Shown: positions 69-40,970 of the stretch, in pieces | Layout: each line of letters begins with the position of its first letter | How positions within the stretch are numbered: position 1 is the first letter of the stretch | Assembly (NCBI GenBank): GCA_951406725.2 | Contig: OX597825.1 | Span: forward strand, 75,640,001 to 75,704,000 | DNA length: 64,000 bases | Source: Octopus vulgaris | Taxonomy: Eukaryota | Direction: 5' to 3' | Translations under genes and position numbers: made by a program | The notes under the pieces: model-generated | What the model was told of the DNA's origin: nothing | The model's input: only the letters and a program-made list of their open reading frames with translations | The model's database searches: none

Positions 69-959
69 TCATATGTTGTGGTGTGTGCTATTGCTCCATT
101 CTAGTTTTCTATTCAGGCTAGGTTTATTTTCTATTATATGTGTAGCCTCTGTAATTTGTCTAATTGTTGCATCTGCTCTATGTGTGGACAATTTCTTAAT
201 CTCTATGTTATTGATTGATCCCCCGTGTTCCTGTTCGGCGTGTTGGTACAGAATCGATGAGCTTTTACCTTCCTTGAGTTGTCTCCAATGTACATTCACC
301 CGCTTTCCTATGCTTCTTGCCGTTTCCCCTACGTATGTTATTGTCTTGTTACTGCATCATCCCTCTATACATCTTATACTATAGACTACATTTCTGGCTT
401 TACAGTTTGTTTGTGGGCTAAATCTACATACAGTGCAATAGTTATCCGTACAGGGGGTTCTACTAAAAGGATAGGTTCTACCAATTATAGATTTGATAGG
501 GTTGCCTGGCTTTTCAACAACCTTAATTCTTAGTTTAAGTTTATCTAGGGTCCTTCTAAAGCGGTACGCCAGTTCACCTCCAGGGGTGGTGTCAACGAAC
601 ATGACACTCTGGTATTTATGGCTATCATACCAAGTGTTGGCCTTCCCTATTTTCTTTTTTGTCCTTTCTATAGTGTTCCATGACTTGTTCCTATAGAGTG
701 GGCAAATCCCATTCCTATCATTACATAATATATTATCAAATTTCTTCATGGCTCCTTTGTATACTCTGATCCTTTCTTTATGGCTGTAACCTGAGAACTG
801 CATGCGGTGAATGAAATACTGTATGTGTCTCTTTAATTCTGTAGGCTCGCACATGCGTGACACATTTCTCATTATTCTGACGAGGTCTGCCATCAAAATA
901 TTGAATTTGGCATTGCCCGCAATGGCTGAGTTCCGGTGGATCAGGTATTTTGAGGCCAT
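69..959 (-). pseudogene. Penelope thumb/linker plus GIY-YIG endonuclease, interrupted by in-frame TGA at 357-359
   Basis: CTDNYCTVC..C Cys motif, then [34 protein letters not shown] and the C-terminal RQITEA..I...PSLNRK.EW. Confidence 0.88.
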
Positions 960-3403
960 AGGTTTGGCATAGTAAGGATTTGGGTTTTATTTTTCACAAT
1001 TTCTAGCCAGAGTTCAGTGTCTAGTACTGGTAGTCTATGGTTGGGGTGTTTAGTGGGGTAGTCTATTGTGACCTTAATACTCTGGTGGATGGAGTTAGCT
1101 ATTTGCTGGATGCTCTCCATAGTGTTAGTTTCTATTACTATATCAACATTACTCTCTTGTGGGGGTGCCTTTACCACTATGTTGATATCATCAACATAGC
1201 GAGAGTACATGTTTACGAGTATGGATTTTTGCAGTAGGCGTTCTTTAAGCCTTCTGTTCCACCATACCATGAAAAGGTTGGCCACATCACCAGCGATACT
1301 AACACCGATGGCTGCCCCCTCGTCCTGGGCATATACTTTATTATTAAATTTAAACGTGTGGCCTTTTAGGGTAACTCTTATACTAGCTCCTAGTGCATGT
1401 GCGATCATTTTCTTTACCTGATGGACATTTGCGGGGCTCCATATGGCTCTGGTCCATCCGCGCCATCTTTCTATATGAGTCTTCCTAGCCATAGAAGTAA
1501 TTGTAGGCAGTCTACCTCTTAAACATCTACTGGGGCAGAAACTACTATGATTATGTTTATCTAAGTATTCATTATTACATGTCAGTCTAAGTAGGAGGCC
1601 CAGTTCTTCTGTGTTGACATTACAGAACTCCACCTGGCTCTCGTTGATCATCTCCATGCACTTCTCCACTGCAAAATCTACGTCAATCGATGGGTATAGG
1701 GATACCACATCCATGCTACCTACTATACATCCTGTCAAGTCACAAGTTTTGTTACAGTCACTGATCCTGCTTAGGAGATCTTCTGTGCTGTCACACACAT
1801 CAGGTGACATCCTGATTATAGGGCGTATGATCATTGAGAGGAAGTAGGAGATTCTGTAATTGCTAGCGATATTCGCTCCACAGACTGGTCTTGTTGGTGG
1901 TCCTGCTATAGGGTCAGTAAAAACTTTATGGTCCTTGCGAAGTCCATACAGTGCCGGGATATCATTGTTCCAGGCTTGGAAATTATTCGCAGTACGTTTC
2001 TGGGGTCCCAGAACAATTGTCCACATCATCATGTGGGCATTGAGGACCTTTTCCCTCTCCTCATGCGCCTGTACAGTTGTTATTTTTGTATTGGCGATAT
2101 GAGGTTGCATTGCCTGGATGTAGTTTGGTAAGCTGTCTATTGACATCCTGCCGGACTTATCTGTGGGAAGGCATATCACCTCTCTGTTCCTCGTGCGCTG
2201 AATGAGCTTCTGTAGGCCACATGCAGGTTTAATCCTGAGTTGTTGGGCATCTGTCTTATTCTGTCTCTGTCTCTTAATGTATAATCCTAAAATCTGTCTA
2301 AGTTTGGTCCTAGCTATAGTGAACTGTGCTTCCATATGGTCATTAGTACGTCTTGGGATGTATACTCTTTTGTTGAAGGGTAATGTTGTTGGATAAATCC
2401 GGTTCATGCAGTAAGTTTTGTCACATACGTTGAAGAATTGAGTGTCAAAGGGATGGGTATACATGTCAATGGTCTTTCTAGGGTTATCTTCATTATCGTT
2501 ACTGTTTCCAACATCAGCCTTCCTATTATTATTATCACCATTACCACTACTACTAGTATTCCTATTACCACCACAACTATCACTACTATCCTCATTACTA
2601 CTTCTACTGTTACCATCACCACTACTACTACCACTATTATTGTTATTACCTTTATTCCTACCATTGCCATTATTACTATCATCGCTAGTGATATTTTCAT
2701 TGTTCCTGTTTCTGGTATATGTGTTGTTTATATTAGTGTTGGGTTTTATGTCTGTCTGTTGGTCCCTGTCATTCCCCCTGTTGTGGTTGTTATTTTTGCT
2801 CCTATGAGTATTGTTATCTGTTTCAAGTCTGCTGACTCCCTGTCCAAGGATTCTGTTGTATTCAACTTTATTCTCCATCGTGACCCCCATGACACAACTT
2901 TTATTCGTGTCTTTGTGACAATGGTTATCTGTGTGTGTGTTTGTGTGTCGGTTCTCCCTATAATTGTTGTTGTTGTTGCTGTTGTATACGATTTTTTTTT
3001 CTCTGTTTGTGTTTTTGTTTTTGTATCTATTGCTTGTGTCTATGCATTCATTTTTTCTATTTTTGTTGTTGTTGCCGCTGTTAGGGTTCGTGTTGCTTTT
3101 GTTGCTACGGTTGTTATTGCTGCGGTCATTATTGTTTGTGTTGTTGTTGCTGCGGTTAGTGTTTTTCGCGTTGGTGTTGTTGTCGTAAGTGTTGTTTTCA
3201 TTGTATCTATTTAAATTCCAACGTAGTTTTGTGAACGACTTTTCAATCGCGGACAGGCATTTGATGGTATTCACCTTACTATACACTGCATACTTTGGTG
3301 GTAGTTGAAGTATCGATATTTCATCTGGGTCCGTTGTTACTCCCCCATAGATGTTCGCTTCATTGTCTTTATTGAACTCTTCTGGTAGTAGCACATCTTC
3401 CAT
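941..3403 (-). CDS. Penelope-like reverse transcriptase with Asn-rich insert; frameshifted from its C-terminal part
   Basis: 820-aa ORF with DVVSLYPSI and RYVDD. The frame stays open up to the inversion junction at ~3450. A frameshift near 970 moves the continuation YAKPMASKY into another frame. Confidence 0.9.
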   Translation of the reverse strand: MEDVLLPEEFNKDNEANIYGGVTTDPDEISILQLPPKYAVYSKVNTIKCLSAIEKSFTKLRWNLNRYNENNTYDNNTNAKNTNRSNNNTNNNDRSNNNRSNKSNTNPNSGNNNKNRKNECIDTSNRYKNKNTNREKKIVYNSNNNNNYRENRHTNTHTDNHCHKDTNKSCVMGVTMENKVEYNRILGQGVSRLETDNNTHRSKNNNHNRGNDRDQQTDIKPNTNINNTYTRNRNNENITSDDSNNGNGRNKGNNNNSGSSSGDGNSRSSNEDSSDSCGGNRNTSSSGNGDNNNRKADVGNSNDNEDNPRKTIDMYTHPFDTQFFNVCDKTYCMNRIYPTTLPFNKRVYIPRRTNDHMEAQFTIARTKLRQILGLYIKRQRQNKTDAQQLRIKPACGLQKLIQRTRNREVICLPTDKSGRMSIDSLPNYIQAMQPHIANTKITTVQAHEEREKVLNAHMMMWTIVLGPQKRTANNFQAWNNDIPALYGLRKDHKVFTDPIAGPPTRPVCGANIASNYRISYFLSMIIRPIIRMSPDVCDSTEDLLSRISDCNKTCDLTGCIVGSMDVVSLYPSIDVDFAVEKCMEMINESQVEFCNVNTEELGLLLRLTCNNEYLDKHNHSSFCPSRCLRGRLPTITSMARKTHIERWRGWTRAIWSPANVHQVKKMIAHALGASIRVTLKGHTFKFNNKVYAQDEGAAIGVSIAGDVANLFMVWWNRRLKERLLQKSILVNMYSRYVDDINIVVKAPPQESNVDIVIETNTMESIQQIANSIHQSIKVTIDYPTKHPNHRLPVLDTELWLEIVKNKTQILTMPNLWPQNT

Positions 3404-3450
3404 AATAATTCCATTTATTGTATCTGGATACTTCTGCTTTTCTTCCTTTG

Positions 3451-4263
3451 CGTCAGAATAATGAGAAATGTGTCACGCATGTGCGAGCCTACAGAATTAA
3501 AGAGACACATACAGTATTTCATTCACCGCATGCAGTTCTCAGGTTACAGCCATAAAGAAAGGATCAGAGTATACAAAGGAGCCATGAAGAAATTTGATAA
3601 TATATTATGTAATGATAGGAATGGGATTTGCCCACTCTATAGGAACAAGTCATGGAACACTATAGAAAGGACAAAAAAGAAAATAGGGAAGGCCAACACT
3701 TGGTATGATAGCCATAAATACCAGAGTGTCATGTTCGTTGACACCACCCCTGGAGGTGAACTGGCGTACCGCTTTAGAAGGACCCTAGATAAACTTAAAC
3801 TAAGAATTAAGGTTGTTGAAAAGCCAGGCAACCCTATCAAATCTATAATTGGTAGAACCTATCCTTTTAGTAGAACCCCTGTACGGATAACTATTGCACT
3901 ATTTGTAGATTTAGCCCACAAACAAACTGTAAAGCCAGAAATGTAGTCTATAGTATAAGATGTATAGAGGGACGATGCAGTAACAAGACAATAACATACG
4001 TAGGGGAAACGGCAAGAAGCATAGGAGAGCGGGTGAATGTACATTGGAGACAACTCAAGGAAGGTAAAAGCTCATCGATTCTGTACCAACACGCCGAACA
4101 GGAACACGGGGGATCAATCAATAACATAGAGATTAAGATATTGTCCACACATAGAGCAGATGCAACAATTAGACAAATTACAGAGGCTACACATATAATA
4201 GAAAATAAACCTAGCCTGAATAGAAAACTAGAATGGAGCAATAGCACACACCACAACATATGA
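3451..4263 (+). pseudogene. Inverted copy of Penelope C-terminal/GIY-YIG coding region, frameshifted at ~3877
   Basis: Same protein as 69-882. Has CGA where the other arm has TGA, but lacks one C in the ACCCCC run. Confidence 0.88.
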
Positions 4264-4324
4264 CGATAGAGGATACCAAAAACATAATAAATACACAGAT
4301 TAATAAACAAATAGAAATGAATAA

Positions 4325-4377
4325 CTATATATATGTATATGTATCTATGTATATATGTATGTATGTGTATGTATATG

Positions 4378-4418
<41 letters not shown>

Positions 4419-4457
4419 CTATGTATATATGTATGTATATGTATGTATATATGTGTA

Positions 4458-4494
<37 letters not shown>

Positions 4495-4528
4495 GTGTAT
4501 ATATATGTGTATATATATGTGTATATAT
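4325..4528. repeat. (TA)n/(TATG)n microsatellite inside the Penelope 3' UTR
   Basis: Visible simple repeat; also present in the other arms at 30398-30590 and from 34910. Confidence 0.95.
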
Positions 4529-4877
4529 TTTTTTTTCGATTAGATTTTCTTTTTTTTTTTTCGATTAGATTTATTTTTATTATTACTAATATTGTTGTTA
4601 TACATACATACAAGCATATGTAATGATAATATTGGGTGGATGTAAACACATGAACAAAATTAGAACAAAAGCAACAACAACAAAAACAAAATACAAATTA
4701 CATGAATGTATATAAACAGAAGATACAAATATTACAGGCATCCCCCCCACACACACACTAAAATAAACATAGACGCACATAGAGATATAAGCATGCGCAA
4801 ATGAAGACATACAATAGAAATACAAAATGGCTGACGGTTAGTAAGGAGAGACACAAATACAAAAGAAGAAAACAAAG

Positions 4878-4921
4878 GACCACTGATGCGGTCACAGGAG
4901 TGTGACGAAAGAACTCTGGTC
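4878..4921 (+). ncRNA. Minimal hammerhead-like motif (non-canonical core) in the Penelope 3' UTR
   Basis: GACCA-CTGATGCG-GTCACA(GGAG)TGTGAC-GAAA-GAAC-TC-TGGTC: 5-bp stem I, 6-bp stem II, vestigial stem III. Confidence 0.65.
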
Positions 4922-5329
4922 GAAATAAGATTAAGATTAATGTAAAAAATAAATATCACTGAAGCAAAATAACACCAAATATATAGTGTGTGTGTTTTTA
5001 TTGGCTAAACTGGCAATATGACCATTCCGAAATATAACAATATCTGTTTCAACACACGACTTCACATAAAAAATCTTGCACAACAAATATTTAAGCATAA
5101 TTTAGTGTCTTACAAAATCACACACACGCACACACACACACAAGATAGAGGACATAGTTTTTGAATTTATATTCCAAGCATAAATTGGCTGTTGAAATGG
5201 ATGAAATATTGATCATAACACCTGATTCATAAAGGCAAAAACTGACAGTCTATCAATGTAAACATTTTCTGTTAATTTAAATATATAATAAAACTAATCT
5301 GCTTAAAATTTTCTTTTATAATCTTTCAG

Positions 5330-9326: not shown

Positions 9327-9770
9327 TCTACTATAATAATACTCTTGTGTTTACGAATGAGAAAGGAAGGGGTAATAGATGAATAACGAAGGAAGGGGTG
9401 ATGTCATACTTGGTAGTGGGATGATGAAAATTGTACGCTAAAAAACTAAATCAAACAGCGTTTCAGCTCTGTGAATATATGTGTGTGTATGTAAAAGGAT
9501 GGGGTATGTGAATGTGTGTGTGTGCACGCGCAATGGAAGTGGGATGGTTCATCTTTGTTCGCTTAGTATTGGGTTTATTTTTTGATTTGGTTGAATCTTG
9601 ATTGGATTATCCTTTTGTTTGCCAGTTATTTTTAGTGTTTTGACAGAGAAAAGTCATTCTAAAATTGTTTTTTAATTTAAGCATGTCCAAACAAGTCAAA
9701 TGCTTACACAGAACAGGTTTTATAGCCACATCATCCAAACCAACTGGGTGAAACTGGGCTTAGCTGCTAG
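9327..9770 (+). mobile_element. Non-autonomous Helitron-like element (old)
   Basis: A|TCTACTATAATAATA 5' end; degenerate subterminal hairpin CTGGGTGAAACTGGG followed by CTAG|T. Second copy at 40496-40937. Confidence 0.55.
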
Positions 9771-10013
9771 TATATATATATATATATATATATAATAGAA
9801 ATATTAAAATTACTAAGTCTCTCTAAAAGAGAACAACGGCAGCGTTCCCGGAAAATATTAGTTATCGCCATACTAATATGGCATTCTTATAAAAATAAGA
9901 AAAAAGCTGACCGCTTATTAGCTCCATGAGGCCATCGCCTTAAGTTAGCTATTTGATACACAAACTGTATCCATATAACCTTTGAACAAGGGAGGTCAGT
10001 CGCTCCACACTAC

Positions 10014-10074
10014 TTGGCCGGCAGCTACAGACGCGTTTCGGGGTATTGCCCCCTTTTCAATGCAGCGTAGCCAA
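10014..10074 (-). ncRNA. Type I hammerhead ribozyme, unit 1 (one extra G in the stem II G-run)
   Basis: Minus strand reads TTGGC-TAC-GCTGCA-TTGAAAA-GGGGG-CAATA-CCCC-GAAA-CGCG-TC/TGTAGC-TGCCG-GCCAA. Confidence 0.82.
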
Positions 10075-10377
10075 ACCAGTAGGTGTCGCTTCCGACAATC
10101 TCTGTTCAAAGGTTTTATTTACCTAGCTTCGGTGGAATACATCCACTTGTTTTCAATAATAGAAATATTAAAATTACTAAGTCTCTCTAAAAGAGAACAA
10201 CGGCAGCGTTCCCGGAAAATATTAGTTATCGCCATACTAATATGGCATTCTTATAAAAATAAGAAAAAAGCTGACCGCTTATTAGCTCCATGAGGCCATC
10301 GCCTTAAGTTAGCTATTTGATACACAAACTGTATCCATATAACCTTTGAACAAGGGAGGTCAGTCGCTCCACACTAC

Positions 10378-10437
10378 TTGGCCGGCAGCTACAGACGCGT
10401 TTCGGGGTATTGCCCCTTTTCAATGCAGCGTAGCCAA
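10378..10437 (-). ncRNA. Type I hammerhead ribozyme, unit 2
   Basis: Stem I GCTGCA/TGTAGC, core UUGAAAA (U3-A8), stem II GGGG-CAAUA-CCCC, GAAA, palindromic CGCG, GUC cleavage triplet. Confidence 0.87.
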
Positions 10438-10740
10438 ACCAGTAGGTGTCGCTTCCGACAATCTCTGTTCAAAGGTTTTATTTACCTAGCTTCGGTGGAA
10501 TACATCCACTTGTTTTCAATAATAGAAATATTAAAATTACTAAGTCTCTCTAAAAGAGAACAACGGCAGCGTTCCCGGAAAATATTAGTTATCGCCATAC
10601 TAATATGGCATTCTTATAAAAATAAGAAAAAAGCTGACCGCTTATTAGCTCCATGAGGCCATCGCCTTAAGTTAGCTATTTGATACACAAACTGTATCCA
10701 TATAACCTTTGAACAAGGGAGGTCAGTCGCTCCACACTAC

Positions 10741-10800
10741 TTGGCCGGCAGCTACAGACGCGTTTCGGGGTATTGCCCCTTTTCAATGCAGCGTAGCCAA
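10741..10800 (-). ncRNA. Type I hammerhead ribozyme, unit 3
   Basis: Identical to unit 2. Confidence 0.87.
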
Positions 10801-11200
10801 ACCAGTAGGTGTCGCTTCCGACAATCTCTGTTCAAAGGTTTTATTTACCTAGCTTCGGTGGAATACATCCACTTGTTTTCAATAATAGAAATATTAAAAT
10901 TACTAAGTCTCTCTAAAAGAGAACAACGGCAGCGTTCCCGGAAAATATTAGTTATCGCCATACTAATATGGCATTCTTATAAAAATAAGAAAAAAGCTGA
11001 CCGCTTATTAGCTCCATGAGGCCATCGCCTTAAGTTAGCTATTTGATACACAAACTGTATCCATATAACCTTGTTCAAAGGTTATATGGATACAGTTTGT
11101 GTATCAAATAGCTAACTTAAGGCGATGGCCTCATGGAGCTAATAAGCGGTCAGCTTTTTTTCTTATTTTTATAAGAATGCCATATTAGTATGGCGATAAC

Positions 11201-11247
<47 letters not shown>

Positions 11248-11719
11248 ATATGTAACGTAATAGTGTAGAAAAAATACCATTGGTTTCATATCCAGTGTGA
11301 ACTAGATATCTCTTCAGTTTCTCTAAATGATAACCATTCTCAGCAAAGAATTTTTTTTTAAACACAAGAACACTGGTGATAGTTCAAGAAATATTCCTCT
11401 TAAAAAATTATGGCTGGGCAAGTTGTCTTCTTTTGCTTGATAGCTGGGTTTTCCAATTTTGAAGTAAAATTTTCTGAAAATGTGGACAACTCCTCACAGC
11501 TTCTGTTCTGGTGTTCAGGTAGCCTCTTGACTCATGTGAGTTCATGAGGATTATATATCTTTCTGCCAAACACAATTTACATAGTCTTGTTCCATTGTGA
11601 TAATGTTCACAAGTTTCCAGTTATTTCCACCTGATGGTAAAGGGCGTATGATTGTCCTTTAGGCACTATATGTATTCTGTGAGTGTTGTTGAGTTGCATC
11701 TTTTCGGGACCCTGTTAAA

Positions 11720-15571: not shown

Positions 15572-16411
15572 AATCAACCACAACCAGAGCAGCAGCAACA
15601 ACAACAACAGCAGCAACAACTAGAGCAGCAGCAGCAGCAACAACAAAATCAACCACAACCAGAGCAGCAGCAACAACAAAATCAACCACAACCAGAGCAG
15701 CAGCAACAACAACATCAACAACAACAACAGCAACAACAAAATCAACCACAACTAGAGCAACAGCAGCAACAACAACAACACCAATTGACCAGTGCGGTTC
15801 TTGCAGAACTGCAACAATCGATCTGTGCTTTAAAAGGGGAAGTAGCAGGAATAAAAGCAACCATTCAGGTTGGACTCCACAATGAGGGGTCTTATCGGAA
15901 TGCTCTGCTAAAGAACCTCCCTGTACCTGTACCTCTTGTCGCATTTAAGACCGCGGATTCTGCCACCCATGAAGTCATTGCCATTGGGGTGCCAGAAGAC
16001 ATGGCTGATCTTCAGGCTTTTGCTGCCAACTCAGCCAAAGACCTAGGCTGCGTTCCCCCAACGGGTGCTATCCGCCTTGGACGACCTGGCCCAAAACCTA
16101 GGCTCATCAAGTTGTCTTTTACGGACCACACTGAGGCAACCTCTTACCATCTGGCCTCAGTTAAAGCTGGGCGTGAAAATCGGACCACCTTCCGAACACG
16201 TCCAGGCTTACCGTCCGATGTACGTCCGAAGCTACGTGTAGTGGCTTCCCTGAATAGGAACTCAGCTCTACAGGAAAGCTTCAGTCTTCGGGAAGATGGA
16301 CAAATCTGGAGATTTGTCAAGACTGCTGAAACGTGGAAGAGAGATACCAGCTGGTCTGAGTGCTCTCTACCCACAATAACTAAAAAGACTACAGCAACTC
16401 AGGGAAACTAA
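15186..16411 (+). pseudogene. LINE ORF1 (PHD-like finger + polyQ), frameshifted by 1-bp loss in the C run at ~15513
   Basis: Two overlapping ORFs that join into the intact 408-aa ORF1 of copy 2. Confidence 0.88.
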
Positions 16412-19233
16412 GCCAGAACAACCTGCCATCCTCTACACACCATCATAAACTGCGAGCAGGGTACAAATTGTTGTCCTTAAATGCTCGCAGTTTATGCAAC
16501 AAAATACATTTGTTCAACGCCTACGTCAGAAGTGTTGACCCTGACTTCATCACTGTCACGGAAACATGGGCGCATTCCTTACTCTGTGATGGGGTTTTCA
16601 ACATTACGGGGTACAACCTCTTCCGTAAGGACCGCACTAACCGCCGTGGTGGTGGTGTGATGGTCTACGTTCGTTCAAATTTTTTGGTAATTCCTTGTGC
16701 CGATTTGAACGAATCACAAGAAGAAGTTTTTTTCTGTGACGTGCGTATGACCATGTCAACACTCCTGCTTGGCGTTGTTTATCGTCCCCCAAGTTACCAT
16801 CGGAACACACAGCTTTGCAATGTCCTCCGAGCTGCTGCCAGGAAAACAGCCACTTATGTGTTTATTGCAGGCGATTTCAATCATCCTGAGATCGATTGGG
16901 AGACCTTCCATTGGCCACAGAGTGCAAACGATTTTGTTGAGCTTGTGCTGGACTCAAACTGGTCACAAGTAGTCACCTCTCCAACAAGAGGCGACAACAC
17001 CTTGGACCTGCTCTTCACCACAACTCCTGAAGTGGTTATCAATTGCACTACGGAGGAACCTCTAGGTGACTCTGATCATGCTATGATCATCGCCAATCTG
17101 GCTCTTGCGGGCAACAAAAACCTGAACCATCTCCAATCTGCTTCCTTCGATTGGAAGAGAGCAGATTGGAACCTGTACCACACTGAACTACAGCACCCAA
17201 ACTGGCGTGAATTCTACAACTCTGGAGATGTGAATACTATACTCCAGAGTATCCTGGACTCAATATGGGCAGCATGTGCAGCATCAGTGCCACGTAAACA
17301 AAAAAAGAAGAACCGCCCCAAAAGGGCAATTTGGGAAACTTCAGCGGTCCGACTTGCCAGGAGGGAACGTCGGACTGCTGAACAGGAATACAGGTTGCAT
17401 AAATCAGACACCAACAGGAAGAAGCGGAATAAATCCTCCAACCATCTCAAGCAAGTAACAAAAAAAGCAGTGCTTGAATTTGAACAGTGCATAGCAGCCA
17501 ATCCTGACAGTAAGGTTTTCTGGAAATATGTGCACTCAAAGCAGAGACCTCACTCTCCAGTGGGCCCTCTTCGCAACCCTCACACAAACCAGATCACTGA
17601 CGACCCCAAGGAATGCGCAGAACTCATTGCCGAGTGCTATGCAAACATATTCACTGTTGAAAGTCAAGATGTACCATCTTCACCATCACTAACAGCAAAC
17701 TCCATAACAACTATGGAATTTACACCTGCAATGCTGCGACATCACCTTCAAAATAAGCGCAACTATGCCTCCCCTGGTCTCGATGGAGTTACATACCTGC
17801 TTCTCAAACGTGGCAGGTACTTCCTTTTACACCAGCTTTCTATTTTCTTCCAGTACTGTCTCAACAATGGTGCTACTCCGGAGCAGTGGAAAACTGCCAG
17901 TGTCATTCCTCTGTTCAAAAAGGGCGACCGCACATCACCTGTCAACTATCGCCCAGTCAGTCTCACTAGCTGTATTGCAAAACTGATGGAATCGTGTGTC
18001 AGAGAAACACTCTGGAACTTCTGGAGCTCTCACAGTCTCATCCGACCCTCACAATATGGATTTGTCCCTAACTCCAGCTGCAGTGACCAGCTTGTCGAGT
18101 TCCTTGAGGACATTACTCAGATTACTGACAGTGGCTCATGGGTGGATGTTGTCTACCTTGACTTTGCTAAGGCTTTCAACTCTGTGCCACACAAAAGGCT
18201 TATGGTGAAACTCTCTGCAATGGGTGTGGGGGATGACCTTTTTAACTGGTTGAAATCCTTCATCCTCAGCCGAAAGGAGGTTGTCACAGTTCTAGGACAG
18301 CACTCTACACCATATGAGATGTCATCGAGTGTACCACAGGGATCTGTCCTTGGTCCCCTCTTGTTTGTGGCATACATTAACGACATAGATGCCAATTTAA
18401 AGAATGCCACAGTATTGAAATATGCAGACGACATCAAGCTGTACCTTGAAATCAAGAGGACAGATCCTGATGTCTACAACTCTTTCCTGCAATCAGACCT
18501 AGACACAATGCAGCAATGGATCACAGACTGGCAACTGAAACTGGCTGTGGACAAGTGTACCACCATGCATTTTGGGAGAAAAAACCCTGCGTTCACATAC
18601 TCCCTCCACAACACTGATATCAAGAAATCCTCTTGCGAGCGTGACCTAGGCATCACTGTCAGCAGTGATTTGCGTTGGACAAAGCATATCTCTAAGATTG
18701 TCAGGAAGGCCGAGGGTGTCTTGGCATCACTCAGCAGGTCTTTTGTTAGCCGCTCTCCAGCCATCTATTTAAAACTGTATACAGCTATGGTACGACCACA
18801 CTTGGAATTTGCATCATCAGTTTGGAACCCCTATCTTGCACAGAACATTGACCTCCTGGAATCTGTCCAGAGACGTGCAACCAAACGCATACCCTCCATC
18901 AGACACCTACCATATTCTGAGCGCCTTGTTTCCCTGGGCATGGATTCACTGAAGCTCCGGCGTCTGGCGACGGACTTGGTAAACACCCACAAAGTTATCA
19001 ACCACCTCACCAACAACAACACTGAACACCTTTTTGATCTCCATGTGTCTAACACACGTGGACATGCCTACAAAGTCAGAAAACAATACAGCTCTCATGA
19101 CTTTCGGAAACATTTTTTCATGCTCAGAGTTGCTGAAGCATGGAATAAACTGCCTGCGTCAGTTGTTGACTGCCATGACACTGCATCTTTTAAGGCCCTC
19201 ATGCTTTCCGAAATCCGCCGAAACTACACCTGA
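16384..19233 (+). CDS. LINE ORF2, AP endonuclease + reverse transcriptase, uninterrupted (no ATG start)
   Basis: LNARS, VTETW, YRPP, GDFN, SDH (APE); YLDFAKAF, VPQGSVLGPLLF, YADD (RT); RRATK, TRGH, WNKLP C-terminus. The frame is open from 16384 and overlaps the ORF1 end. Confidence 0.93.
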   Translation, partial: KDYSNSGKLSQNNLPSSTHHHKLRAGYKLLSLNARSLCNKIHLFNAYVRSVDPDFITVTETWAHSLLCDGVFNITGYNLFRKDRTNRRGGGVMVYVRSNFLVIPCADLNESQEEVFFCDVRMTMSTLLLGVVYRPPSYHRNTQLCNVLRAAARKTATYVFIAGDFNHPEIDWETFHWPQSANDFVELVLDSNWSQVVTSPTRGDNTLDLLFTTTPEVVINCTTEEPLGDSDHAMIIANLALAGNKNLNHLQSASFDWKRADWNLYHTELQHPNWREFYNSGDVNTILQSILDSIWAACAASVPRKQKKKNRPKRAIWETSAVRLARRERRTAEQEYRLHKSDTNRKKRNKSSNHLKQVTKKAVLEFEQCIAANPDSKVFWKYVHSKQRPHSPVGPLRNPHTNQITDDPKECAELIAECYANIFTVESQDVPSSPSLTANSITTMEFTPAMLRHHLQNKRNYASPGLDGVTYLLLKRGRYFLLHQLSIFFQYCLNNGATPEQWKTASVIPLFKKGDRTSPVNYRPVSLTSCIAKLMESCVRETLWNFWSSHSLIRPSQYGFVPNSSCSDQLVEFLEDITQITDSGSWVDVVYLDFAKAFNSVPHKRLMVKLSAMGVGDDLFNWLKSFILSRKEVVTVLGQHSTPYEMSSSVPQGSVLGPLLFVAYINDIDANLKNATVLKYADDIKLYLEIKRTDPDVYNSFLQSDLDTMQQWITDWQLKLAVDKCTTMHFGRKNPAFTYSLHNTDIKKSSCERDLGITVSSDLRWTKHISKIVRKAEGVLASLSRSFVSRSPAIYLKLYTAMVRPHLEFASSVWNPYLAQNIDLLESVQRRATKRIPSIRHLPYSERLVSLGMDSLKLRRLATDLVNTHKVINHLTNNNTEHLFDLHVSNTRGHAYKVRKQYSSHDFRKHFFMLRVAEAWNKLPASVVDCHDTASFKALMLSEIRRNYT

Positions 19234-22617: not shown

Positions 22618-25266
22618 TTCTCAGGTGAGAAACCTGCCCGGGAAGTAAACCCAAGTGCAAGTGCTCCTACCAGCACCAAAAGCCAAAGCCAAAACCATGG
22701 AGATGAAAAGAGCCAAAAAAGAAATAAAAAGGAGGAAAAACTAAAGAAAAACAAAAGATGAAACAGCCAAAGAAGGAAAAACTAAAACTCAAACAAGACC
22801 AAAAGATGAAACAGCCAAGGGATAGAAGCAAACCTGACTATCCATGTACCAAAAAGGATAGAAACAGACAGTGCACACGAATGTGTAAATTCCACCTGAA
22901 AGGTGTCTGCTGGCATGGAGAGGAAGGTGCAGGCTGCCATTTTGCACATCAAAGACCCTGCCACATAAACATGAAACAGGTCAGAAACCAACTACCAAAA
23001 GGGAAAGGAATGGACCACGCACCACCTGCCCCAAAACGGAGGCACGCAGATGTGGTGCATGCTACAAACCGTCAACATGTTATTGAAAGGGCAGCTGCTG
23101 AACGAGAATCTTTTGTGCATGGCACAAAAGATTGTACAGCAGCTAACCTGGCTCCATCAAACTCAAACTCGCAGATGGGACTATCCACAATACACAAGAC
23201 TGCCACAGCAAATAGACCCAAGGTGGACACCGCCGGCAACAGTATACACCTCACCTCGATGCTCCTACTGAACATCAGAGGACTGCTAACACTCAGTAAT
23301 AGGACAAAAATCCCATTCTTGAGAGACTTTGTTGCATGCAATCAAGCCTTATGCATAGCACTTACGGAAACACACCTGAAACTGGACATAGCAGATGCGG
23401 AAATACACATACCACAGTATGTTGTACTACGGACCGACAGAAAAGAAAGGAGTCATGGAGGAGTTGCTATGTACATCCGTGAGGACCTCACACCCCAGGT
23501 CCTTTTGTCATACTCAAATTCGGTGTGTGACACACTAATTGTACATATAAAGCAACTTGGTGTAGTTATATGTGCTACATATCGCCCTCCAGATGCTCCA
23601 AGCCATGTAGGCAAGTTTGAAGACTGCCTTATAAAAATAGAAGAAGTTCTAGTCACATTAGAACAACACATAAGTGTACTTCTTATGGGAGACTTCAATC
23701 TACCCAATGTCAGATGGCCCGAGGGCCTTTCTCTCCCAGGAATGACACAATGTGAACGAGGACAGGCGAGGTCCCTCCTGAACCTCATCAACATTCTGTA
23801 CATGGAGCAAGTAATACTCCAACCAACCAGGGCAGGTAACATACTGGATCTCTGCTTCACCAATAAAATGGATCTCATCCATAATGTGAAAGTGACGCCG
23901 ACACTACTCTCGGATCACAACATGGTAGAGCTGATCCATGCACTCGGCCAAAGGAAAGCATGGACATGCAGCCTACAAGAAACTTCCTCAGAATCTTTCC
24001 AGCTTGAACTTCCATAAGGCAAACTGCAAACAAATTGAGAAAGAGATCCTCAAACAAAACTGACCTGAATGTCTATCTTCACCAGACATCGACATGAAAC
24101 TTCAACAATTCATGTCTGTAATGCAAACCCTATGCTACAAATGTGTCCCAGAGAGAAAGGCCACTGTACACAAGAGCAAAATCCCCAGAGAGAGGAAAAT
24201 TTAATGAGACGGCGTACAAAAGTTTTCAAATCGCCTAAACAAACAAATTGAAAGCGGTGAAAAGTCCCACCTGAAAATAAAACTGTTGGAAATTGAAAAA
24301 TGTCTGCAACTCTCCCATGAAAAAAGAAAGAGCAGACAAAGAAGCCTGGGCTATTGACAACATAAAATCTAACCCCAGAGCTTTCTACAGGTATGCCAAA
24401 GAAACAGCTACAGTGCACTGTAGAGATATGGCCACTCCTTGAAAAGGATGGCACACTCACAGGAAATCCAATGAGGGTAAGTGAAATACTAAATGAGCAA
24501 TTCAAGAGTATTTTCACTCCACCCCTAGGGATATTTTCATGTCAGCAATCCAACTGACTTCTTTACCACTGCAGATATAAAATCAGAGGCAGTGATGATT
24601 GATTACATCAATATAAAGGAAGACGATGTAATAAAGGCTATTGATGAAATGAAAACAAACTCAGCTACTGGCCCCGATGGATTCCCAGCAATCCTTCTAA
24701 AAGTATGCCAAGAGAGTCCTAGCAAGACCACTGCAGTTCCTCTCTCAGAGCTTCCTTGCAACTGGCAAACTTCCAAGAAAACTGAAGGAAGGTAAAATAT
24801 GCCCTATTCATAAAGGAGGTAGCAGAGTGGAGGCCCAGAACTACAGACCTATCTCTCTGACCTCACACATCAGCAAGGTCATGGAACAAATAGTCAGAAG
24901 GAAACTAATCACCTTCCTTGAAGAAAATGACTTGCTGCCTGACACCCAACATGGTTTCTGACCAGGCAGAAGCTGCTTAACTCAGCTCCTACAACACTAT
25001 GACTGGGTGTTGAAATGACTGCTCAACCACTCAAATGTGGAGTCATATATCTCGGCTTTGCAAAGGCCTTTGATGAAGTCGATCATGGAATGATTTGTCA
25101 CAAACTGCGTGATCTTGGCATAGTTGGAAAATTGGGAGAATGGCTTCATGACTTTCTGAAGGATAGAAGTCAGGTGGTAGTAGCCAAAGAGGCCACTTCC
25201 ATTAACATGCAAATAGTGAGCGGTGTTCCGCAAGGCACTGTTTTGGGACCACTACTGTTCCTAATG
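22618..25266 (+). mobile_element. CR1/L2-group LINE (family B, CCCH finger-APE-RT), cut by the gap, frameshifted
   Basis: CKFHLKGVCWHGEEGAGCHFAH; LNIRGL, TETHL, YRPP, GDFN, SDH; FAKAFD, GVPQGTVLGPLLF. Confidence 0.88.
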
Positions 25267-29827: not shown

Positions 29828-30030
29828 CAGACAACCCATTCTACAAGTCCTAAATAATGGGATAAGTTATGTGTGCCTTGGATGAATGGTATAAATGCAT
29901 AATTTAGTATTTTGTTATATTTTGGAATGGTCATATTGCCAGTTTAGCCAATGAAAACACACGCACTATATATTTGGTGTTATTTTGCTTCAGTGATATT
30001 TATTTTTTACATTAATCTTAATCTTATTTC

Positions 30031-30074
30031 GGCCAGAGTTCTTTCGTCACACTCCTGTGACCGCATCAGTGGTC
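30031..30074 (-). ncRNA. Minimal hammerhead-like motif in the left Penelope arm
   Basis: Reverse complement of 4878-4921 with one stem I mismatch (TGGCC). Confidence 0.55.
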
Positions 30075-30500
30075 CTTTGTTTTCTTCTTTCGTATTTGTG
30101 TCTCTCCTTACTAACAGTCAGCCATTTTGTATTTCTATTGTATGTCTTCATTTGCGCATGCTTATATCTCTATATGCGTCTATGTTTATTTAGTGTGTGT
30201 GTGGGGGGATGCCTGTAATATTTGTATCTTCTGTTTATATACATTCATGTAATTTGTATTTTGTTTTTGTTGTTGTTGCTTTTGTTCTAATTTTGTTCAT
30301 GTGTTTACATCCACCCAATATTATCATTACATATGCTTGTATGTATGTATAACAACAATATTAGTAATAATAAAAATAAATCTAATCGAAAAAAAAATAT
30401 ATACACATATATATATACTCATATACATATACATATATATATATATATATACATATATACACATATATACATACATATACATACATATATACATAGATAC

Positions 30501-30545
<45 letters not shown>

Positions 30546-31524
30546 CATATACATACATATATACATACATAGATACATATACATATATATAGTTATTCAT
30601 TTCTATTTGTTTATTTATCTGTGTATTTATTATGTTTTTGGTATCCTCTATCGTCATATGTTGTGGTGTGTGCTATTGCTCCATTCTAGTTTTCTATTCA
30701 GGCTAGGTTTATTTTCTATTATATGTGTAGCCTCTGTAATTTGTCTAATTGTTGCATCTGCTCTATGTGTGGACAATTTCTTAATCTCTATGTTATTGAT
30801 TGATCCCCCGTGTTCCTGTTCGGCGTGTTGGTACAGAATCGATGAGCTTTTACCTTCCTTGAGTTGTCTCCAATGTACATTCACCCGCTTTCCTATGCTT
30901 CTTGCCGTTTCCCCTACGTATGTTATTGTCTTGTTACTGCATCATCCCTCTATACATCTTATACTATAGACTACATTTCTGGCTTTACAGTTTGTTTGTG
31001 GGCTAAATCTACATACAGTGCAATAGTTATCCGTACAGGGGGTTCTACTAAAAGGATAGGTTCTACCAATTATAGATTTGATAGGGTTGCCTGGCTTTTC
31101 AACAACCTTAATTCTTAGTTTAAGTTTATCTAGGGTCCTTCTAAAGTGGTACGCCAGTTCACCTCCAGGGGTGGTGTCAACGAACATGACACTCTGGTAT
31201 TTATGGCTATCATACCAAGTGTTGGCCTTCCCTATTTTCTTTTTGTCCTTTCTATAGTGTTCCATGACTTGTTCCTATAGAGTGGGCAAATCCCATTCCT
31301 ATCATTACATAATATATTATCAAATTTCTTCATGGCTCCTTTGTATACTCTGATCCTTTCTTTATGGCTGTAACCTGAGAACTGCATGCGGTGAATGAAA
31401 TACTGTATGTGTCTCTTTAATTCTGTAGGCTCGCACATGCGTGACACATTTCTCATTATTCTGACGAGGTCTGCCATCAAAATATTGAATTTGGCATTGC
31501 CCGCAATGGCTGAGTTCCGGTGGA

Positions 31525-33987
31525 TCAGGTATTTTGAGGCCATAGGTTTGGCATAGTAAGGATTTGGGTTTTATTTTTCACAATTTCTAGCCAGAGTTCA
31601 GTGTCTAGTACTGGTAGTCTATGGTTGGGGTGTTTAGTGAGGTAGTCTATTGTGACCTTAATACTCTGGTGGATGGAGTTAGCTATTTGCTGGATGCTCT
31701 CCATAGTGTTAGTTTCTATTACTATATCAACATTACTCTCTTGTGGGGGTGCCTTTACCACTATGTTGATATCATCAACATAGCGAGAGTACATGTTTAC
31801 GAGTATGGATTTTTGCAGTAGGCGTTCTTTAAGCCTTCTGTTCCACCATACCATGAAAAGGTTGGCCACATCACCAGCGATACTAACACCGATGGCTGCC
31901 CCCTCGTCCTGGGCATATACTTTATTATTAAATTTAAACGTGTGGCCTTTTAGGGTAACTCTTATACTAGCTCCTAGTGCATGTGCGATCATTTTCTTTA
32001 CCTGATGGACATTTGCGGGGCTCCATATGGCTCTGGTCCATCCGCGCCATCTTTCTATATGAGTCTTCCTAGCCATAGAAGTAATTGTAGGCAGTCTACC
32101 TCTTAAACATCTACTGGGGCAGAAACTACTATGATTATGTTTATCTAAGTATTCATTATTACATGTCAGTCTAAGTAGGAGGCCCAGTTCTTCTGTGTTG
32201 ACATTACAGAACTCCACCTGGCTCTCGTTGATCATCTCCATGCACTTCTCCACTGCAAAATCTACGTCAATCGATGGGTATAGGGATACCACATCCATGC
32301 TACCTACTATACATCCTGTCAAGTCACAAGTTTTGTTACAGTCACTGATCCTGCTTAGGAGATCTTCTGTGCTGTCACACACATCAGGTGACATCCTGAT
32401 TATAGGGCGTATGATCATTGAGAGGAAGTAGGAGATTCTGTAATTGCTAGCGATATTCGCTCCACAGACTGGTCTTGTTGGTGGTCCTGCTATAGGGTCA
32501 GTAAAAACTTTATGGTCCTTGCGAAGTCCATACAGTGCCGGGATATCATTGTTCCAGGCTTGGAAATTATTCGCAGTACGTTTCTGGGGTCCCAGAACAA
32601 TTGTCCACATCATCATGTGGGCATTGAGGACCTTTTCCCTCTCCTCATGCGCCTGTACAGTTGTTATTTTTGTATTGGCGATATGAGGTTGCATTGCCTG
32701 GATGTAGTTTGGTAAGCTGTCTATTGACATCCTGCCGGACTTATCTGTGGGAAGGCATATCACCTCTCTGTTCCTCGTGCGCTGAATGAGCTTCTGTAGG
32801 CCACATGCAGGTTTAATCCTGAGTTGTTGGGCATCTGTCTTATTCTGTCTCTGTCTCTTAATGTATAATCCTAAAATCTGTCTAAGTTTGGTCCTAGCTA
32901 TAGTGAACTGTGCTTCCATATGGTCATTAGTACGTCTTGGGATGTATACTCTTTTGTTGAAGGGTAATGTTGTTGGATAAATCCGGTTCATGCAGTAAGT
33001 TTTGTCACATACGTTGAAGAATTGAGTGTCAAAGGGATGGGTATACATGTCAATGGTCTTTCTAGGGTTATCTTCATTATCGTTACTGTTTCCAACATCA
33101 GCCTTCCTATTATTATTATCACCATTACCACTACTACTAGTATTCCTATTACCACCACAACTATCACTACTATCCTCATTACTACTTCTACTGTTACCAT
33201 CACCACTACTACTACCACTATTATTGTTATTACCTTTATTCCTACCATTGCCATTATTACTATCATCGCTAGTGATATTTTCATTGTTCCTGTTTCTGGT
33301 ATATGTGTTGTTTATATTAGTGTTGGGTTTTATGTCTGTCTGTTGGTCCCTGTCATTCCCCCTGTTGTGGTTGTTATTTTTGCTCCTATGAGTATTGTTA
33401 TCTGTTTCAAGTCTGCTGACTCCCTGTCCAAGGATTCTGTTGTATTCAACTTTATTCTCCATCGTGACCCCCATGACACAACTTTTATTCGTGTCTTTGT
33501 GACAATGGTTATCTGTGTGTGTGTTTGTGTGTCGGTTCTCCCTATAATTGTTGTTGTTGTTGCTGTTGTATACGATTTTTTTTTCTCTGTTTGTGTTTTT
33601 GTTTTTGTATCTATTGCTTGTGTCTATGCATTCATTTTTTCTATTTTTGTTGTTGTTGCCGCTGTTAGGGTTCGTGTTGCTTTTGTTGCTACGGTTGTTA
33701 TTGCTGCGGTCATTATTGTTTGTGTTGTTGTTGCTGCGGTTAGTGTTTTTCGCGTTGGTGTTGTTGTCGTAAGTGTTGTTTTCATTGTATCTATTTAAAT
33801 TCCAACGTAGTTTTGTGAACGACTTTTCAATCGCGGACAGGCATTTGATGGTATTCACCTTACTATACACTGCATACTTTGGTGGTAGTTGAAGTATCGA
33901 TATTTCATCTGGGTCCGTTGTTACTCCCCCATAGATGTTCGCTTCATTGTCTTTATTGAACTCTTCTGGTAGTAGCACATCTTCCAT
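31525..33987 (-). CDS. Penelope-like RT with Asn-rich insert (copy 2)
   Basis: 820 aa, identical to 941-3403 except DYP>DYL. Confidence 0.9.
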   Translation of the reverse strand: MEDVLLPEEFNKDNEANIYGGVTTDPDEISILQLPPKYAVYSKVNTIKCLSAIEKSFTKLRWNLNRYNENNTYDNNTNAKNTNRSNNNTNNNDRSNNNRSNKSNTNPNSGNNNKNRKNECIDTSNRYKNKNTNREKKIVYNSNNNNNYRENRHTNTHTDNHCHKDTNKSCVMGVTMENKVEYNRILGQGVSRLETDNNTHRSKNNNHNRGNDRDQQTDIKPNTNINNTYTRNRNNENITSDDSNNGNGRNKGNNNNSGSSSGDGNSRSSNEDSSDSCGGNRNTSSSGNGDNNNRKADVGNSNDNEDNPRKTIDMYTHPFDTQFFNVCDKTYCMNRIYPTTLPFNKRVYIPRRTNDHMEAQFTIARTKLRQILGLYIKRQRQNKTDAQQLRIKPACGLQKLIQRTRNREVICLPTDKSGRMSIDSLPNYIQAMQPHIANTKITTVQAHEEREKVLNAHMMMWTIVLGPQKRTANNFQAWNNDIPALYGLRKDHKVFTDPIAGPPTRPVCGANIASNYRISYFLSMIIRPIIRMSPDVCDSTEDLLSRISDCNKTCDLTGCIVGSMDVVSLYPSIDVDFAVEKCMEMINESQVEFCNVNTEELGLLLRLTCNNEYLDKHNHSSFCPSRCLRGRLPTITSMARKTHIERWRGWTRAIWSPANVHQVKKMIAHALGASIRVTLKGHTFKFNNKVYAQDEGAAIGVSIAGDVANLFMVWWNRRLKERLLQKSILVNMYSRYVDDINIVVKAPPQESNVDIVIETNTMESIQQIANSIHQSIKVTIDYLTKHPNHRLPVLDTELWLEIVKNKTQILTMPNLWPQNT

Positions 33988-34961
33988 AATAATTCCATTT
34001 ATTGTATCTGGATACTTCTGCTTTTCTTCCTTTGCGTCAGAATAATGAGAAATGTGTCACGCATGTGCGAGCCTACAGAATTAAAGAGACACATACAGTA
34101 TTTCATTCACCGCATGCAGTTCTCAGGTTACAGCCATAAAGAAAGGATCAGAGTATACAAAGGAGCCATGAAGAAATTTGATAATATATTATGTAATGAT
34201 AGGAATGGGATTTGCCCACTCTATAGGAACAAGTCATGGAACACTATAGAAAGGACAAAAAAGAAAATAGGGAAGGCCAACACTTGGTATGATAGCCATA
34301 AATACCAGAGTGTCATGTTCGTTGACACCACCCCTGGAGGTGAACTGGCGTACCGCTTTAGAAGGACCCTAGATAAACTTAAACTAAGAATTAAGGTTGT
34401 TGAAAAGCCAGGCAACCCTATCAAATCTATAATTGGTAGAACCTATCCTTTTAGTAGAACCCCTGTACGGATAACTATTGCACTGTATGTAGATTTAGCC
34501 CACAAACAAACTGTAAAGCCAGAAATGTAGTCTATAGTATAAGATGTATAGAGGGACGATGCAGTAACAAGACAATAACATACGTAGGGGAAACGGCAAG
34601 AAGCATAGGAGAGCGGGTGAATGTACATTGGAGACAACTCAAGGAAGGTAAAAGCTCATCGATTCTGTACCAACACGCCGAACAGGAACACGGGGGATCA
34701 ATCAATAACATAGAGATTAAGATATTGTCCACACATAGAGCAGATGCAACAATTAGACAAATTACAGAGGCTACACATATAATAGAAAATAAACCTAGCC
34801 TGAATAGAAAACTAGAATGGAGCAATAGCACACACCACAACATATGACGATAGAGGATACCAAAAACATAATAAATACACAGATTAATAAACAAATAGAA
34901 ATGAATAACTATATATATGTATATGTATCTATGTATATATGTATGTATGTGTATGTATATG

Positions 34962-35012
<51 letters not shown>

Positions 35013-35101
35013 CTATGTATATATGTATGTATATGTATGTATATATGTGTATATATGTATATATATATATATATATATATGTATATGTATATGTGTATAT
35101 A

Positions 35102-40936: not shown

Positions 40937-40970
<34 letters not shown>

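What the first reader, a model, noticed from the sequence alone, without database searches (positions are those of the whole stretch)
9792..11204. Recently inserted hammerhead retrozyme array predicted to release 363-nt (circular) RNAs
Seen: ~3.5 almost identical head-to-tail units (364/363/363 bp) with no credible ORF. Each full unit carries a complete minus-strand type I hammerhead, with predicted GUC cleavage between 10030/10029, 10394/10393 and 10757/10756. The array sits in a (TA)n tract and is absent from the duplicate locus (40938-40968). Established: metazoan non-LTR retrozymes are tandem repeats of a few hundred bp with minimal hammerheads, yield circular RNAs, and are proposed to be mobilised by Penelope-like elements. 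Inference: this is a young, probably polymorphic insertion produced by rolling-circle reverse transcription of a circular monomer. I do not recognise it as a described cephalopod family, but cannot check that here.
Basis: partly seen in the sequence, partly recalled or inferred. Interest (0 to 1): 0.9.

Follow-up and report, generated by a model that had tools for sequence, protein, structure and literature searches.

The report
Two-armed ribozyme retroelement in TA repeats
A 363-base non-coding repeat with a predicted self-cutting RNA fold has spread to over a thousand sites, mostly as two head-to-head arms starting at two different fixed points, which likely records a Penelope-type enzyme copying a likely circular RNA into both DNA strands at once.

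Summary
It is one copy of a young family (1,030 exact left ends, 892 exact hammerheads in G000). The hammerhead has the rare U3-A8 core, missed by Rfam but backed by an invariant core and compensatory pairs across subfamilies up to about 20% apart. Start points are fixed, not variable: inverted copies pair an arm starting at unit base 1 with one starting near base 64; like-like pairs are 1 of 35 and at most 1 of 33. A co-resident Neptune-type Penelope-like element with intact 781-aa frames shares the U3-A8 core, the (TA)n target and the unlike-end pairing (7 of 7), without other sequence similarity. Arms share alleles within a locus, run through the cleavage site 122 of 126 times and stop most often at the foot of the ribozyme stem. 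Best reading: a non-LTR retrozyme primed on both target strands by a PLE enzyme, probably from a circle. Cleavage, expression, circles and the partner are untested. The scan noted a similar PLE-type footprint before, on a tRNA-bearing repeat (e1-7810660).

The parts
9771..9791 (.). left (TA)n target tract, 21 nt
9792..11072 (-). arm A: 3.53 direct copies of the 363-bp unit, starting at fixed start site 1 (window 9792) and ending at unit base 191, inside the main stop zone 188-198; the ribozyme-sense RNA is the minus strand
9792..9854 (-). 63-bp stretch between the two start sites (unit bases 1-63), equivalent to the PLE 'tail'
   Evidence: tail defined in PMC11167929
10024..10066 (-). predicted type I hammerhead, copy 1 (U3-A8 core, one extra G beside stem II); predicted cut 10030/10029
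10341..10477 (-). long rod that carries the ribozyme (12-bp closing stem, inner helices, extended stem I), shown for unit 2
10388..10429 (-). predicted type I hammerhead, copy 2: stem I 6 bp, core UUGAAAA, stem II 4 bp, GAAA, 2-bp palindromic stem III, GUC; predicted cut 10394/10393
10751..10792 (-). predicted type I hammerhead, copy 3; predicted cut 10757/10756
11069..11072 (.). head-to-head junction of the two arms, 4-bp overlap
11069..11204 (+). arm B: inverted copy of unit bases 200 to 66, starting at the second fixed start site (about base 64) at 11204; shares the minor allele at unit base 111 with arm A
11205..11245 (.). right (TA)n target tract, 41 nt
40938..40968 (.). empty (TA)n site, 31 nt, in the duplicate copy of the region

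Best explanation
This is one young insertion of a dispersed 363-bp non-coding repeat family, made of two head-to-head arms in a (TA)n tract, and it was likely written by a Penelope-like (Neptune-type) reverse transcriptase-endonuclease that would nick both target strands and prime one cDNA from each, at two fixed sites 63 nt apart on a likely circular RNA cut out by a predicted U3-A8 hammerhead. Shown: the family, the fixed and unlike pairing of starts, the (TA)n target, allele sharing between arms, read-through of the cleavage site, the stop zone at the stem foot, and the same footprint in a co-resident autonomous PLE. Inferred: transcription of arrays, dimer-dependent self-cleavage, ligation to 363-nt (sometimes multi-unit) circles, binding by a PLE dimer with one active site at each start, strand-displacing synthesis round the circle, and joining of the two cDNA ends by 1-6 nt of microhomology. 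Odds by step: moved by a PLE enzyme 0.92; hammerhead active in vivo 0.75; template circular 0.62; both arms from one RNA molecule 0.55.
For: Pairing: of 60 loci picked by start 1, 35 have an inverted arm: 28 start at 61-72, 5 at 79-99, 1 at 1-9, 1 elsewhere; of 40 picked by start 64, 33 have one: 31 start at 1-9, 1 at 79, 1 at 128; best joint P under independent choice about 4e-18. (TA)-rich flanks at both outer ends in 79 of 85 clean loci. Autonomous PLE: 781-aa RT plus GIY-YIG frame open in 11 fetched copies, 95-100% alike; its terminal repeat has a UUGAUAA core and the same palindromic stem III as the older retrozyme subfamily; two ends 38 nt apart on (TA)n; inverted copies pair unlike ends 7 of 7, P about 0.0008. 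Same source for both arms: 185 of 196 cells agree at polymorphic sites (about 129 expected); a minor allele is in both arms in 35 of 46 cells against 0.15 mean, 0.44 maximum in 2,000 shuffles; L048 carries a period-2 variant in the same phase in both arms, L046 a first-unit variant in both. Uncleaved template: 122 of 126 passes cross the cleavage site, 4 ends there against 3.2 expected; no indel or change at the scissile G in 182 passes. Single-unit bottleneck: neighbouring copies agree in 409 of 426 comparisons against 303 expected; L121 has six copies sharing the same changes. Ribozyme: core nearly invariant, N7 free, loop 3 changes keep the palindrome; 95.6% of cells paired, 5 compensatory pairs, slid controls 30-40%. 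Literature: a purified PLE cuts and extends both strands, starts at two internal sites that delimit the tail, and is predicted to be a dimer (PMC11167929).
Against: No direct RNA evidence: no listed holder is on record as RNA and all laid runs are contigs. No sequence similarity between the unit and the Neptune terminal repeat beyond the ribozyme core (blastn blank; local scores within shuffles), so the partner family is not identified; other PLE families here also have U3-A8 cores. 17 of 426 neighbour comparisons differ, and L043, L046, L047, L187 carry mixed units, which needs multi-unit templates, template switches or later local duplication. 11 of 46 minor-allele cells are in one arm only, and private alleles are in both arms in only 1 of 83 cases. 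32 of 100 anchored loci have no inverted arm. The 63-nt tail is longer than the 30-40 bp reported. PLE hammerheads cleave poorly in vitro, including minimal forms (PMC4209133), 8 of 9 Xenopus retrozyme dimers did not cleave (Li 2026 preprint), and uncleaved RNA was the main substrate for the purified PLE (PMC11167929). The number of compensatory pairs alone (5) is not above the shuffle control (58 of 500).
Confidence: 0.68

Rival explanations
1. Same PLE-driven two-strand priming, but the template is an uncleaved linear multimer read from an existing array; the hammerhead is slow, acts later or is vestigial, and arrays regrow by local duplication after insertion.
For: Read-through of the cleavage site fits this equally. 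Mixed-unit arrays and first-unit-specific alleles (L043, L046, L187). Uncleaved RNA was the main substrate in vitro (PMC11167929); satellite growth by unequal crossover is proposed in the Li 2026 preprint. Start 1 lies next to (TA)n in source loci, so a read-through transcript would end in a (UA)n tail that could prime like a LINE.
Against: Each round could only shorten arrays; the longest arm among 140 loci is 5.5 units and no long master array was among the 40 best candidates (40 of 1,282 scored, assembly collapse not excluded). Many distinct haplotypes each fill whole multi-unit arrays on both arms (409 of 426). The catalytic core is held across 20% divergence.
Confidence: 0.22
2. The unit is the solo terminal repeat (pLTR) of an autonomous PLE family that I did not sample, and the arrays are its truncated by-products rather than an independent retrozyme.
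For: Anatomy and ribozyme class are those of PLE pLTRs; Xenopus retrozymes are often homologous to pLTRs (Li 2026 preprint). Only 150 of 6,136 GIY-YIG candidates were scored and 50 fetched.
Against: In none of 100 loci checked by tblastn (39 top loci, 60 start-1 loci and the window) does an arm run on into a PLE frame; hits are neighbouring insertions. Units join directly head to tail with no intervening body. A pattern for the same ribozyme with another stem I found 24 hits against 18 for the control.
Confidence: 0.07
3. The inverted arm arises by fold-back self-priming of one cDNA or antisense RNA (model of PMC3846280), or by classical L1-type twin priming on one linear RNA.
For: Short overlaps at junctions; in 57 of 85 loci one arm's sequence is contained in the other; 21 of 85 junction phases lie within 30 nt.
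Against: In 28 of 85 loci each arm holds sequence absent from the other, and 64 of 85 junction phases differ by more than 30 nt; arm A runs past arm B's start in 71 of 85; only 3 of 85 end where classical twin priming predicts. Fold-back does not explain why the far end stops at base 64 on (TA)n.
Confidence: 0.03
4. Assembly stutter or an ordinary satellite with a chance ribozyme-like fold.
For: Units 2 and 3 are identical; the region sits in a 30.6-kb tandem duplication that could be an uncollapsed haplotype.
Against: Over a thousand dispersed ends with zero control hits, locus-specific junctions and alleles, covariation.
Confidence: 0.01

Closest known systems
Metazoan non-LTR retrozymes (Cervera and de la Pena 2020, PMC7229834; passages read)
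   Same: Tandem non-coding units of 150-450 bp, GC under 50%, type I hammerhead with short palindromic stem III in each unit, highly self-paired monomer, co-existence with PLEs.
   Different: U3-A8 core instead of the canonical one; two-armed inverted insertions with two fixed starts in (TA)n, which the paper does not describe (the words 'inverted' and 'microsatellite' do not occur in it); circles were shown there, not here.
Retrozymes as non-autonomous PLE derivatives (Li, Clavereau, Pollet 2026, bioRxiv 10.64898/2026.07.22.740005; parts 1-3 of 5 read, supplements closed)
   Same: Proposes mobilisation by PLE machinery.
   Different: Rests on co-occurrence and pLTR homology in vertebrates and favours local amplification; here there is no pLTR homology, and the evidence is the insertion footprint.
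EN+ Penelope-like elements, Neptune/Naiad anatomy (Craig 2021, PMC8557442; Arkhipova 2013, PMC3846280; passages and one section read)
   Same: Partial tandems, an inverted truncated copy, a tail at one end only, (TA)n preference, target duplications near 8-10 bp (7-12 bp at L050).
   Different: No ORF; tail 63 nt against 30-40; both arms can be several units long; the unlike-end pairing is shown here as a near-strict rule.
Poseidon PLE of Anolis in vitro (Frangieh 2024, PMC11167929; parts 1-2 of 4 read)
   Same: Two internal reverse-transcription starts delimiting the tail, both strands cut and extended, AT-rich target, predicted dimer, hammerhead upstream.
   Different: No difference in start site between strands was seen in bulk and pairing within one insertion was not examined; starts there are not homologous to the target, whereas both starts here end in AUAU-like bases that match (TA)n.
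U3-A8 hammerhead variant of Schistosoma mansoni PLEs (Cervera and de la Pena 2014, PMC4209133; parts 1-2 of 4 read)
   Same: Same core covariation, palindromic positions 15.2-16.2 and loop 3.
   Different: There mostly single minimal motifs of high heterogeneity; here in a tandem retrozyme, with a 6-bp stem I inside a long covarying rod.
L1 twin priming (recalled, from no call)
   Same: Two primers from opposite target strands give an inversion joined by microhomology.
   Different: In L1 the second site varies and the arms do not overlap; here it is fixed and the arms overlap in 71 of 85 loci.

Membership tests
non-LTR retrozyme | tandem non-coding units of about 150-450 bp, GC under 50%, no LTR/PBS/PPT | tested here: met
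   363 bp, GC about 0.41, no credible ORF
non-LTR retrozyme | type I hammerhead fold in every unit | tested here: met
   stems I and II pair at 0.93-0.98 probability; covariation and invariant core
non-LTR retrozyme | canonical C3-G8 core as in the described families | tested here: not met
   U3-A8 in nearly all of 147 copies read; Rfam blank; hence filed as a variant
non-LTR retrozyme | dispersed multi-copy family | tested here: met
non-LTR retrozyme | self-cleavage of the RNA | not testable with these tools
   needs in vitro transcription
non-LTR retrozyme | expressed as monomer-length circular RNA | tested here: inconclusive
   only contigs of runs guessed to be RNA; genomic signs indirect
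PLE-mobilised element | inverted copy plus tail at one end only | tested here: met
PLE-mobilised element | AT-rich or microsatellite target | tested here: met
   79 of 85 loci TA-rich at both ends
PLE-mobilised element | young autonomous EN+ PLE in the same genome | tested here: met
   781-aa RT and GIY-YIG frames open in 11 fetched copies
PLE-mobilised element | sequence shared with the partner's pLTR | tested here: not met
   only the ribozyme core is shared with the 50 PLE loci checked; most PLE candidates not sampled
autonomous PLE or its solo pLTR | RT-GIY-YIG frame between or adjoining the repeats | tested here: not met
   0 of 100 loci run into a PLE frame
Neptune clade (for the candidate partner) | C-terminal GIY-YIG, DKG motif, CX2-5CxxC finger in the RT-EN linker | tested here: met
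   motifs visible in the 781-aa translation, defined in PMC8557442; no tree was built, and Nematis also has the finger
plant LTR retrozyme | LTRs with type III hammerheads, 4-bp target duplication | tested here: not met
   type I fold, tandem units, no LTR pair

The most novel reading that the evidence does not exclude
PLE insertion is an obligately two-ended reaction: a dimeric enzyme holds one circular RNA at two fixed starts, gives one start to each nicked target strand, and both active sites roll round the circle. This single rule would explain the PLE tail, the inverted copy and the more-than-unit tandems, and this 363-nt retrozyme is a minimal natural substrate that parasitises Neptune by RNA shape and a shared U3-A8 ribozyme, not by sequence homology.
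Probability: 0.4. Interest if true: 0.85.

Novelty: new variant of a known kind. Interest (0 to 1): 0.64.

Why it matters
How Penelope-like elements make their tandem, inverted and tailed insertions, and whether retrozyme circles are real transposition templates moved by PLEs, are stated as open in PMC8557442, PMC11167929 and PMC7229834. This family gives hundreds of short, young insertions that can be read as reaction products: they show a near-strict one-start-per-strand rule, shared alleles in both arms and read-through of the ribozyme cut, and contradict fold-back for a third of loci. With an intact candidate enzyme in the same genome, the two-site, two-strand, circular-template model can be tested directly in an existing in vitro assay. 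The U3-A8 core also means that standard hammerhead searches miss such families.

Tried and rejected
Rfam: no hammerhead at gathering score over the window or at E up to 10 over 9700-11300; the microRNA hits there are the palindrome at the arm junction. Sequencing runs: no RNA holder listed; contigs of X1, X5, X6, X15 cover the unit at 90-100% identity but cannot show ends, strand or circles; X15 has one 393-nt contig (363 plus 30), which a circle or a DNA tandem would both give, run type unknown. Partner search: blastn of the unit against 50 PLE loci found only one neighbouring retrozyme copy (L089/L115); local alignment to the Neptune terminal repeat was within shuffles; a pattern for PLEs with the young loop 3 gave 24 hits against 18 control; the sequence of the second PLE family next to L063 was not searched genome-wide. 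A loose motif likeness near unit bases 97-119 to the PLE short end was seen by eye and not supported. Arm-length correlation: rho 0.47 pooled (n=61) but 0.30, P=0.10 in one set and 0.52, P=0.003 in the other: not used as firm evidence. Run-off at the cleavage site (linear monomer template): rejected. Endless reading frame round the 363-nt circle: rejected. 77-aa antisense frame: 1-nt indels between subfamilies fall inside it. Earlier scan notes: nothing by sequence or in this genome.

Full report
Observation. The repeat is there: three full units (364, 363, 363 bp; units 2 and 3 identical, unit 1 one base longer) and 191 bp of a fourth, 9792-11072. (TA)n lies on both sides (21 and 41 nt). The window holds a tandem duplication with an offset of about 30.6 kb, 99.7-100% alike next to the site and 96.8% at its far end; the other copy has a plain 31-nt (TA)n tract. 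So the insertion is younger than the duplication, or heterozygous in an uncollapsed haplotype, or was lost from one copy; I cannot tell which. The longest ATG frame is 77 aa on the strand opposite the ribozyme.

The ribozyme. The core has U3-A8 in place of C3-G8, a covariation reported for Schistosoma PLE hammerheads (PMC4209133). Rfam reports no hammerhead. Support comes from the family: in 147 copies of the domain, and about 180 passes per position, the catalytic positions hardly change while N7 takes A, U, C or G and loop 3 switches between two palindromes. On 26 sequences (the window's plus 25 of 28 non-redundant copies; three were left out by hand), 95.6% of cells pair, five pairs show compensatory change and slid controls give 30-40%; cells with double change (34) exceed all 500 shuffles, the count of such pairs does not (58 of 500). 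Stems I and II form with probability 0.93-0.98; the monomer folds at z = -6.4. Cleavage itself is untested, and such ribozymes are often weak in vitro (PMC4209133; Li 2026 preprint, 1 of 9 dimers active).

The family. A search of G000 gave 1,282 candidates, of which 40 were scored, with full units 93-100% identical. Exact patterns count 1,030 junctions of (TA)n with unit base 1, 74 with base 64 in one exact junction form, and 892 young ribozyme cores, each with zero control hits. Older subfamilies lie at 78-90% identity. Young copies differ by 1.9% between loci.

Anatomy. The 40 best loci showed arms beginning at base 1 or near base 64. To avoid that selection I fetched 60 stretches covering the first 62 listed start-1 sites and 40 of the 74 start-64 sites, in list order, skipping 14 already held. 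Of the 60, 35 have an inverted arm: 28 start at 61-72, 5 at 79-99, 1 at 1-9, 1 elsewhere; 25 are single-armed. Of the 40, 33 have one: 31 start at 1-9 (one with a very short first arm), one at 79, one at 128; 7 are single. No independent choice of starts fits both sets (best joint P about 4e-18). In 85 clean two-armed loci out of 140 examined, both outer ends are TA-rich in 79 and most junctions overlap by 1-6 nt. One locus outside a microsatellite shows a target duplication of 7-12 bp (L050). An inverted copy with a tail at one end is the known PLE signature (PMC8557442; PMC3846280), and the tail was shown to be the stretch between two reverse-transcription starts of an enzyme that cuts and extends both strands (PMC11167929). 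Here the tail is 63 nt.

Candidate partner. A GIY-YIG search (6,136 candidates, 150 scored) led to a young PLE with a 781-aa RT-endonuclease frame, open in 11 fetched copies at 95-100% identity, with the linker finger of Neptune-type elements (no tree built). Its terminal repeat carries a UUGAUAA hammerhead with the same stem III palindrome as the older retrozyme subfamily; two other PLE families seen by chance have UUGAAAA cores. It ends on (TA)n at two points 38 nt apart. Among 31 tail ends and 100 short ends listed over the same part of the genome, all 7 inverted pairs within 10 kb are tail with short (P about 0.0008). Against a specific partnership: beyond the ribozyme core there is no sequence similarity, and no retrozyme arm runs into a PLE frame in 100 loci. 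So a PLE enzyme is strongly implicated, the family is not pinned down.

One template or two. In 58 young loci the two arms agree in 185 of 196 cells at polymorphic sites (about 129 expected), and a minor allele is in both arms in 35 of 46 cells, against a mean of 0.15 and a maximum of 0.44 in 2,000 shuffles. L048 has a variant alternating with period 2 in the same phase on both arms, L034 a period-2 variant in its one arm, L046 a variant in the first unit of both arms. The window's arms share a minor allele found in 5 of 54 counts. This shows a common source, not yet one molecule: one active source locus per cell would give the same. Private alleles are nearly all in one arm (82 of 83), as expected for changes after insertion or assembly errors. 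Fold-back cannot make 28 of 85 loci, and only 3 of 85 end where L1-type twin priming would.

Circle or line. Arm ends pile up at unit bases 188-198, the foot of the ribozyme rod (29 against 6.1 expected), with a weaker excess at the hairpin at 27-42; there is none at the cleavage site (4 against 3.2), which is crossed in 122 of 126 approaches, and no pause where arm A meets arm B's start. A cleaved linear monomer is therefore not the template. Neighbouring copies agree in 409 of 426 comparisons (303 expected), many haplotypes each fill whole arrays, and the longest arm is 5.5 units: new alleles pass through one unit and are multiplied again, which a circle does by itself. The rival is an uncleaved linear multimer with later local duplication; the 17 disagreements and the in vitro preference for uncleaved RNA (PMC11167929) keep it alive. 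Public runs gave no RNA on record and only contigs.

Comparison and novelty. It works like a non-LTR retrozyme (PMC7229834) moved by a PLE, as proposed there and in the Li 2026 preprint. It fails the canonical-core feature and the pLTR-homology feature, and cleavage and circles are untested, so I file it as a new variant. Each piece (U3-A8 core, tail, inverted copy, two starts) is in print; my searches found no description of this family, of two-armed retrozyme insertions, or of the one-start-per-strand rule, within the limits of an open-access library. An unchecked scan note reports a PLE-type footprint in (TA)n for a tRNA-bearing repeat in another genome, which suggests that such parasites are not rare. 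Verdict: real, young, mechanistically informative; interest 0.64.

Noticed in passing
window 1-25266 and 30586-54939: Tandem duplication of about 25 kb with offset 30.6 kb, 99.9% alike at the left end and 96.8% at the right, the two copies differing by several insertions; true duplication or uncollapsed haplotype not decided.
   Followed up: partly
window about 100-3472 (minus) and 31525-34056: Another Penelope-like element: 843-aa RT frame with a long asparagine-rich stretch, no Pfam hit, weak match to the 781-aa PLE, then a frame break before a GIY-YIG-like part; recalls the N-rich inserts of rotifer Penelopes in PMC3846280.
   Followed up: partly
window 16384-19233 (plus) and 46046-48895: LINE frame of 949 aa with AP endonuclease and RT, open in the first copy and split by a stop in the duplicate; a further endonuclease frame at 22728-24017.
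   Followed up: no
window 35101-35670: Insertion in a (TA)n tract present only in the second copy, starting with two identical 180-bp units; resembles a non-autonomous Helitron-type element (recalled, not tested).
   Followed up: no
window 29909-31466: Inverted copy of 3451-5043 between the two duplicate blocks.
   Followed up: no
window 10947-11204: The two arms form a near-perfect hairpin of about 126 bp; read-through transcripts of such loci would give long double-stranded RNA, a possible substrate for editing or small-RNA pathways, and the palindrome may be unstable in DNA (inference).
   Followed up: no
L101-L112, L120: Young Neptune-type PLE family with many open 781-aa frames, 514 exact short ends and 166 exact tail ends in G000; its hammerhead has GUU or GUA at the cleavage triplet and a weak stem I.
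   Followed up: partly
L153:755-950 (oriented from start 1): A retrozyme arm begins on only about 10 nt of (TA)n at the end of a PLE of a second family (62% to the 781-aa protein) whose core is UUGAAAA like the young retrozyme; shared target choice or a hint at the partner.
   Followed up: no
L132, L135, L141, L149, L165, L216: Second arms starting at unit bases 79-99: deletions, or a minor third start site.
   Followed up: no
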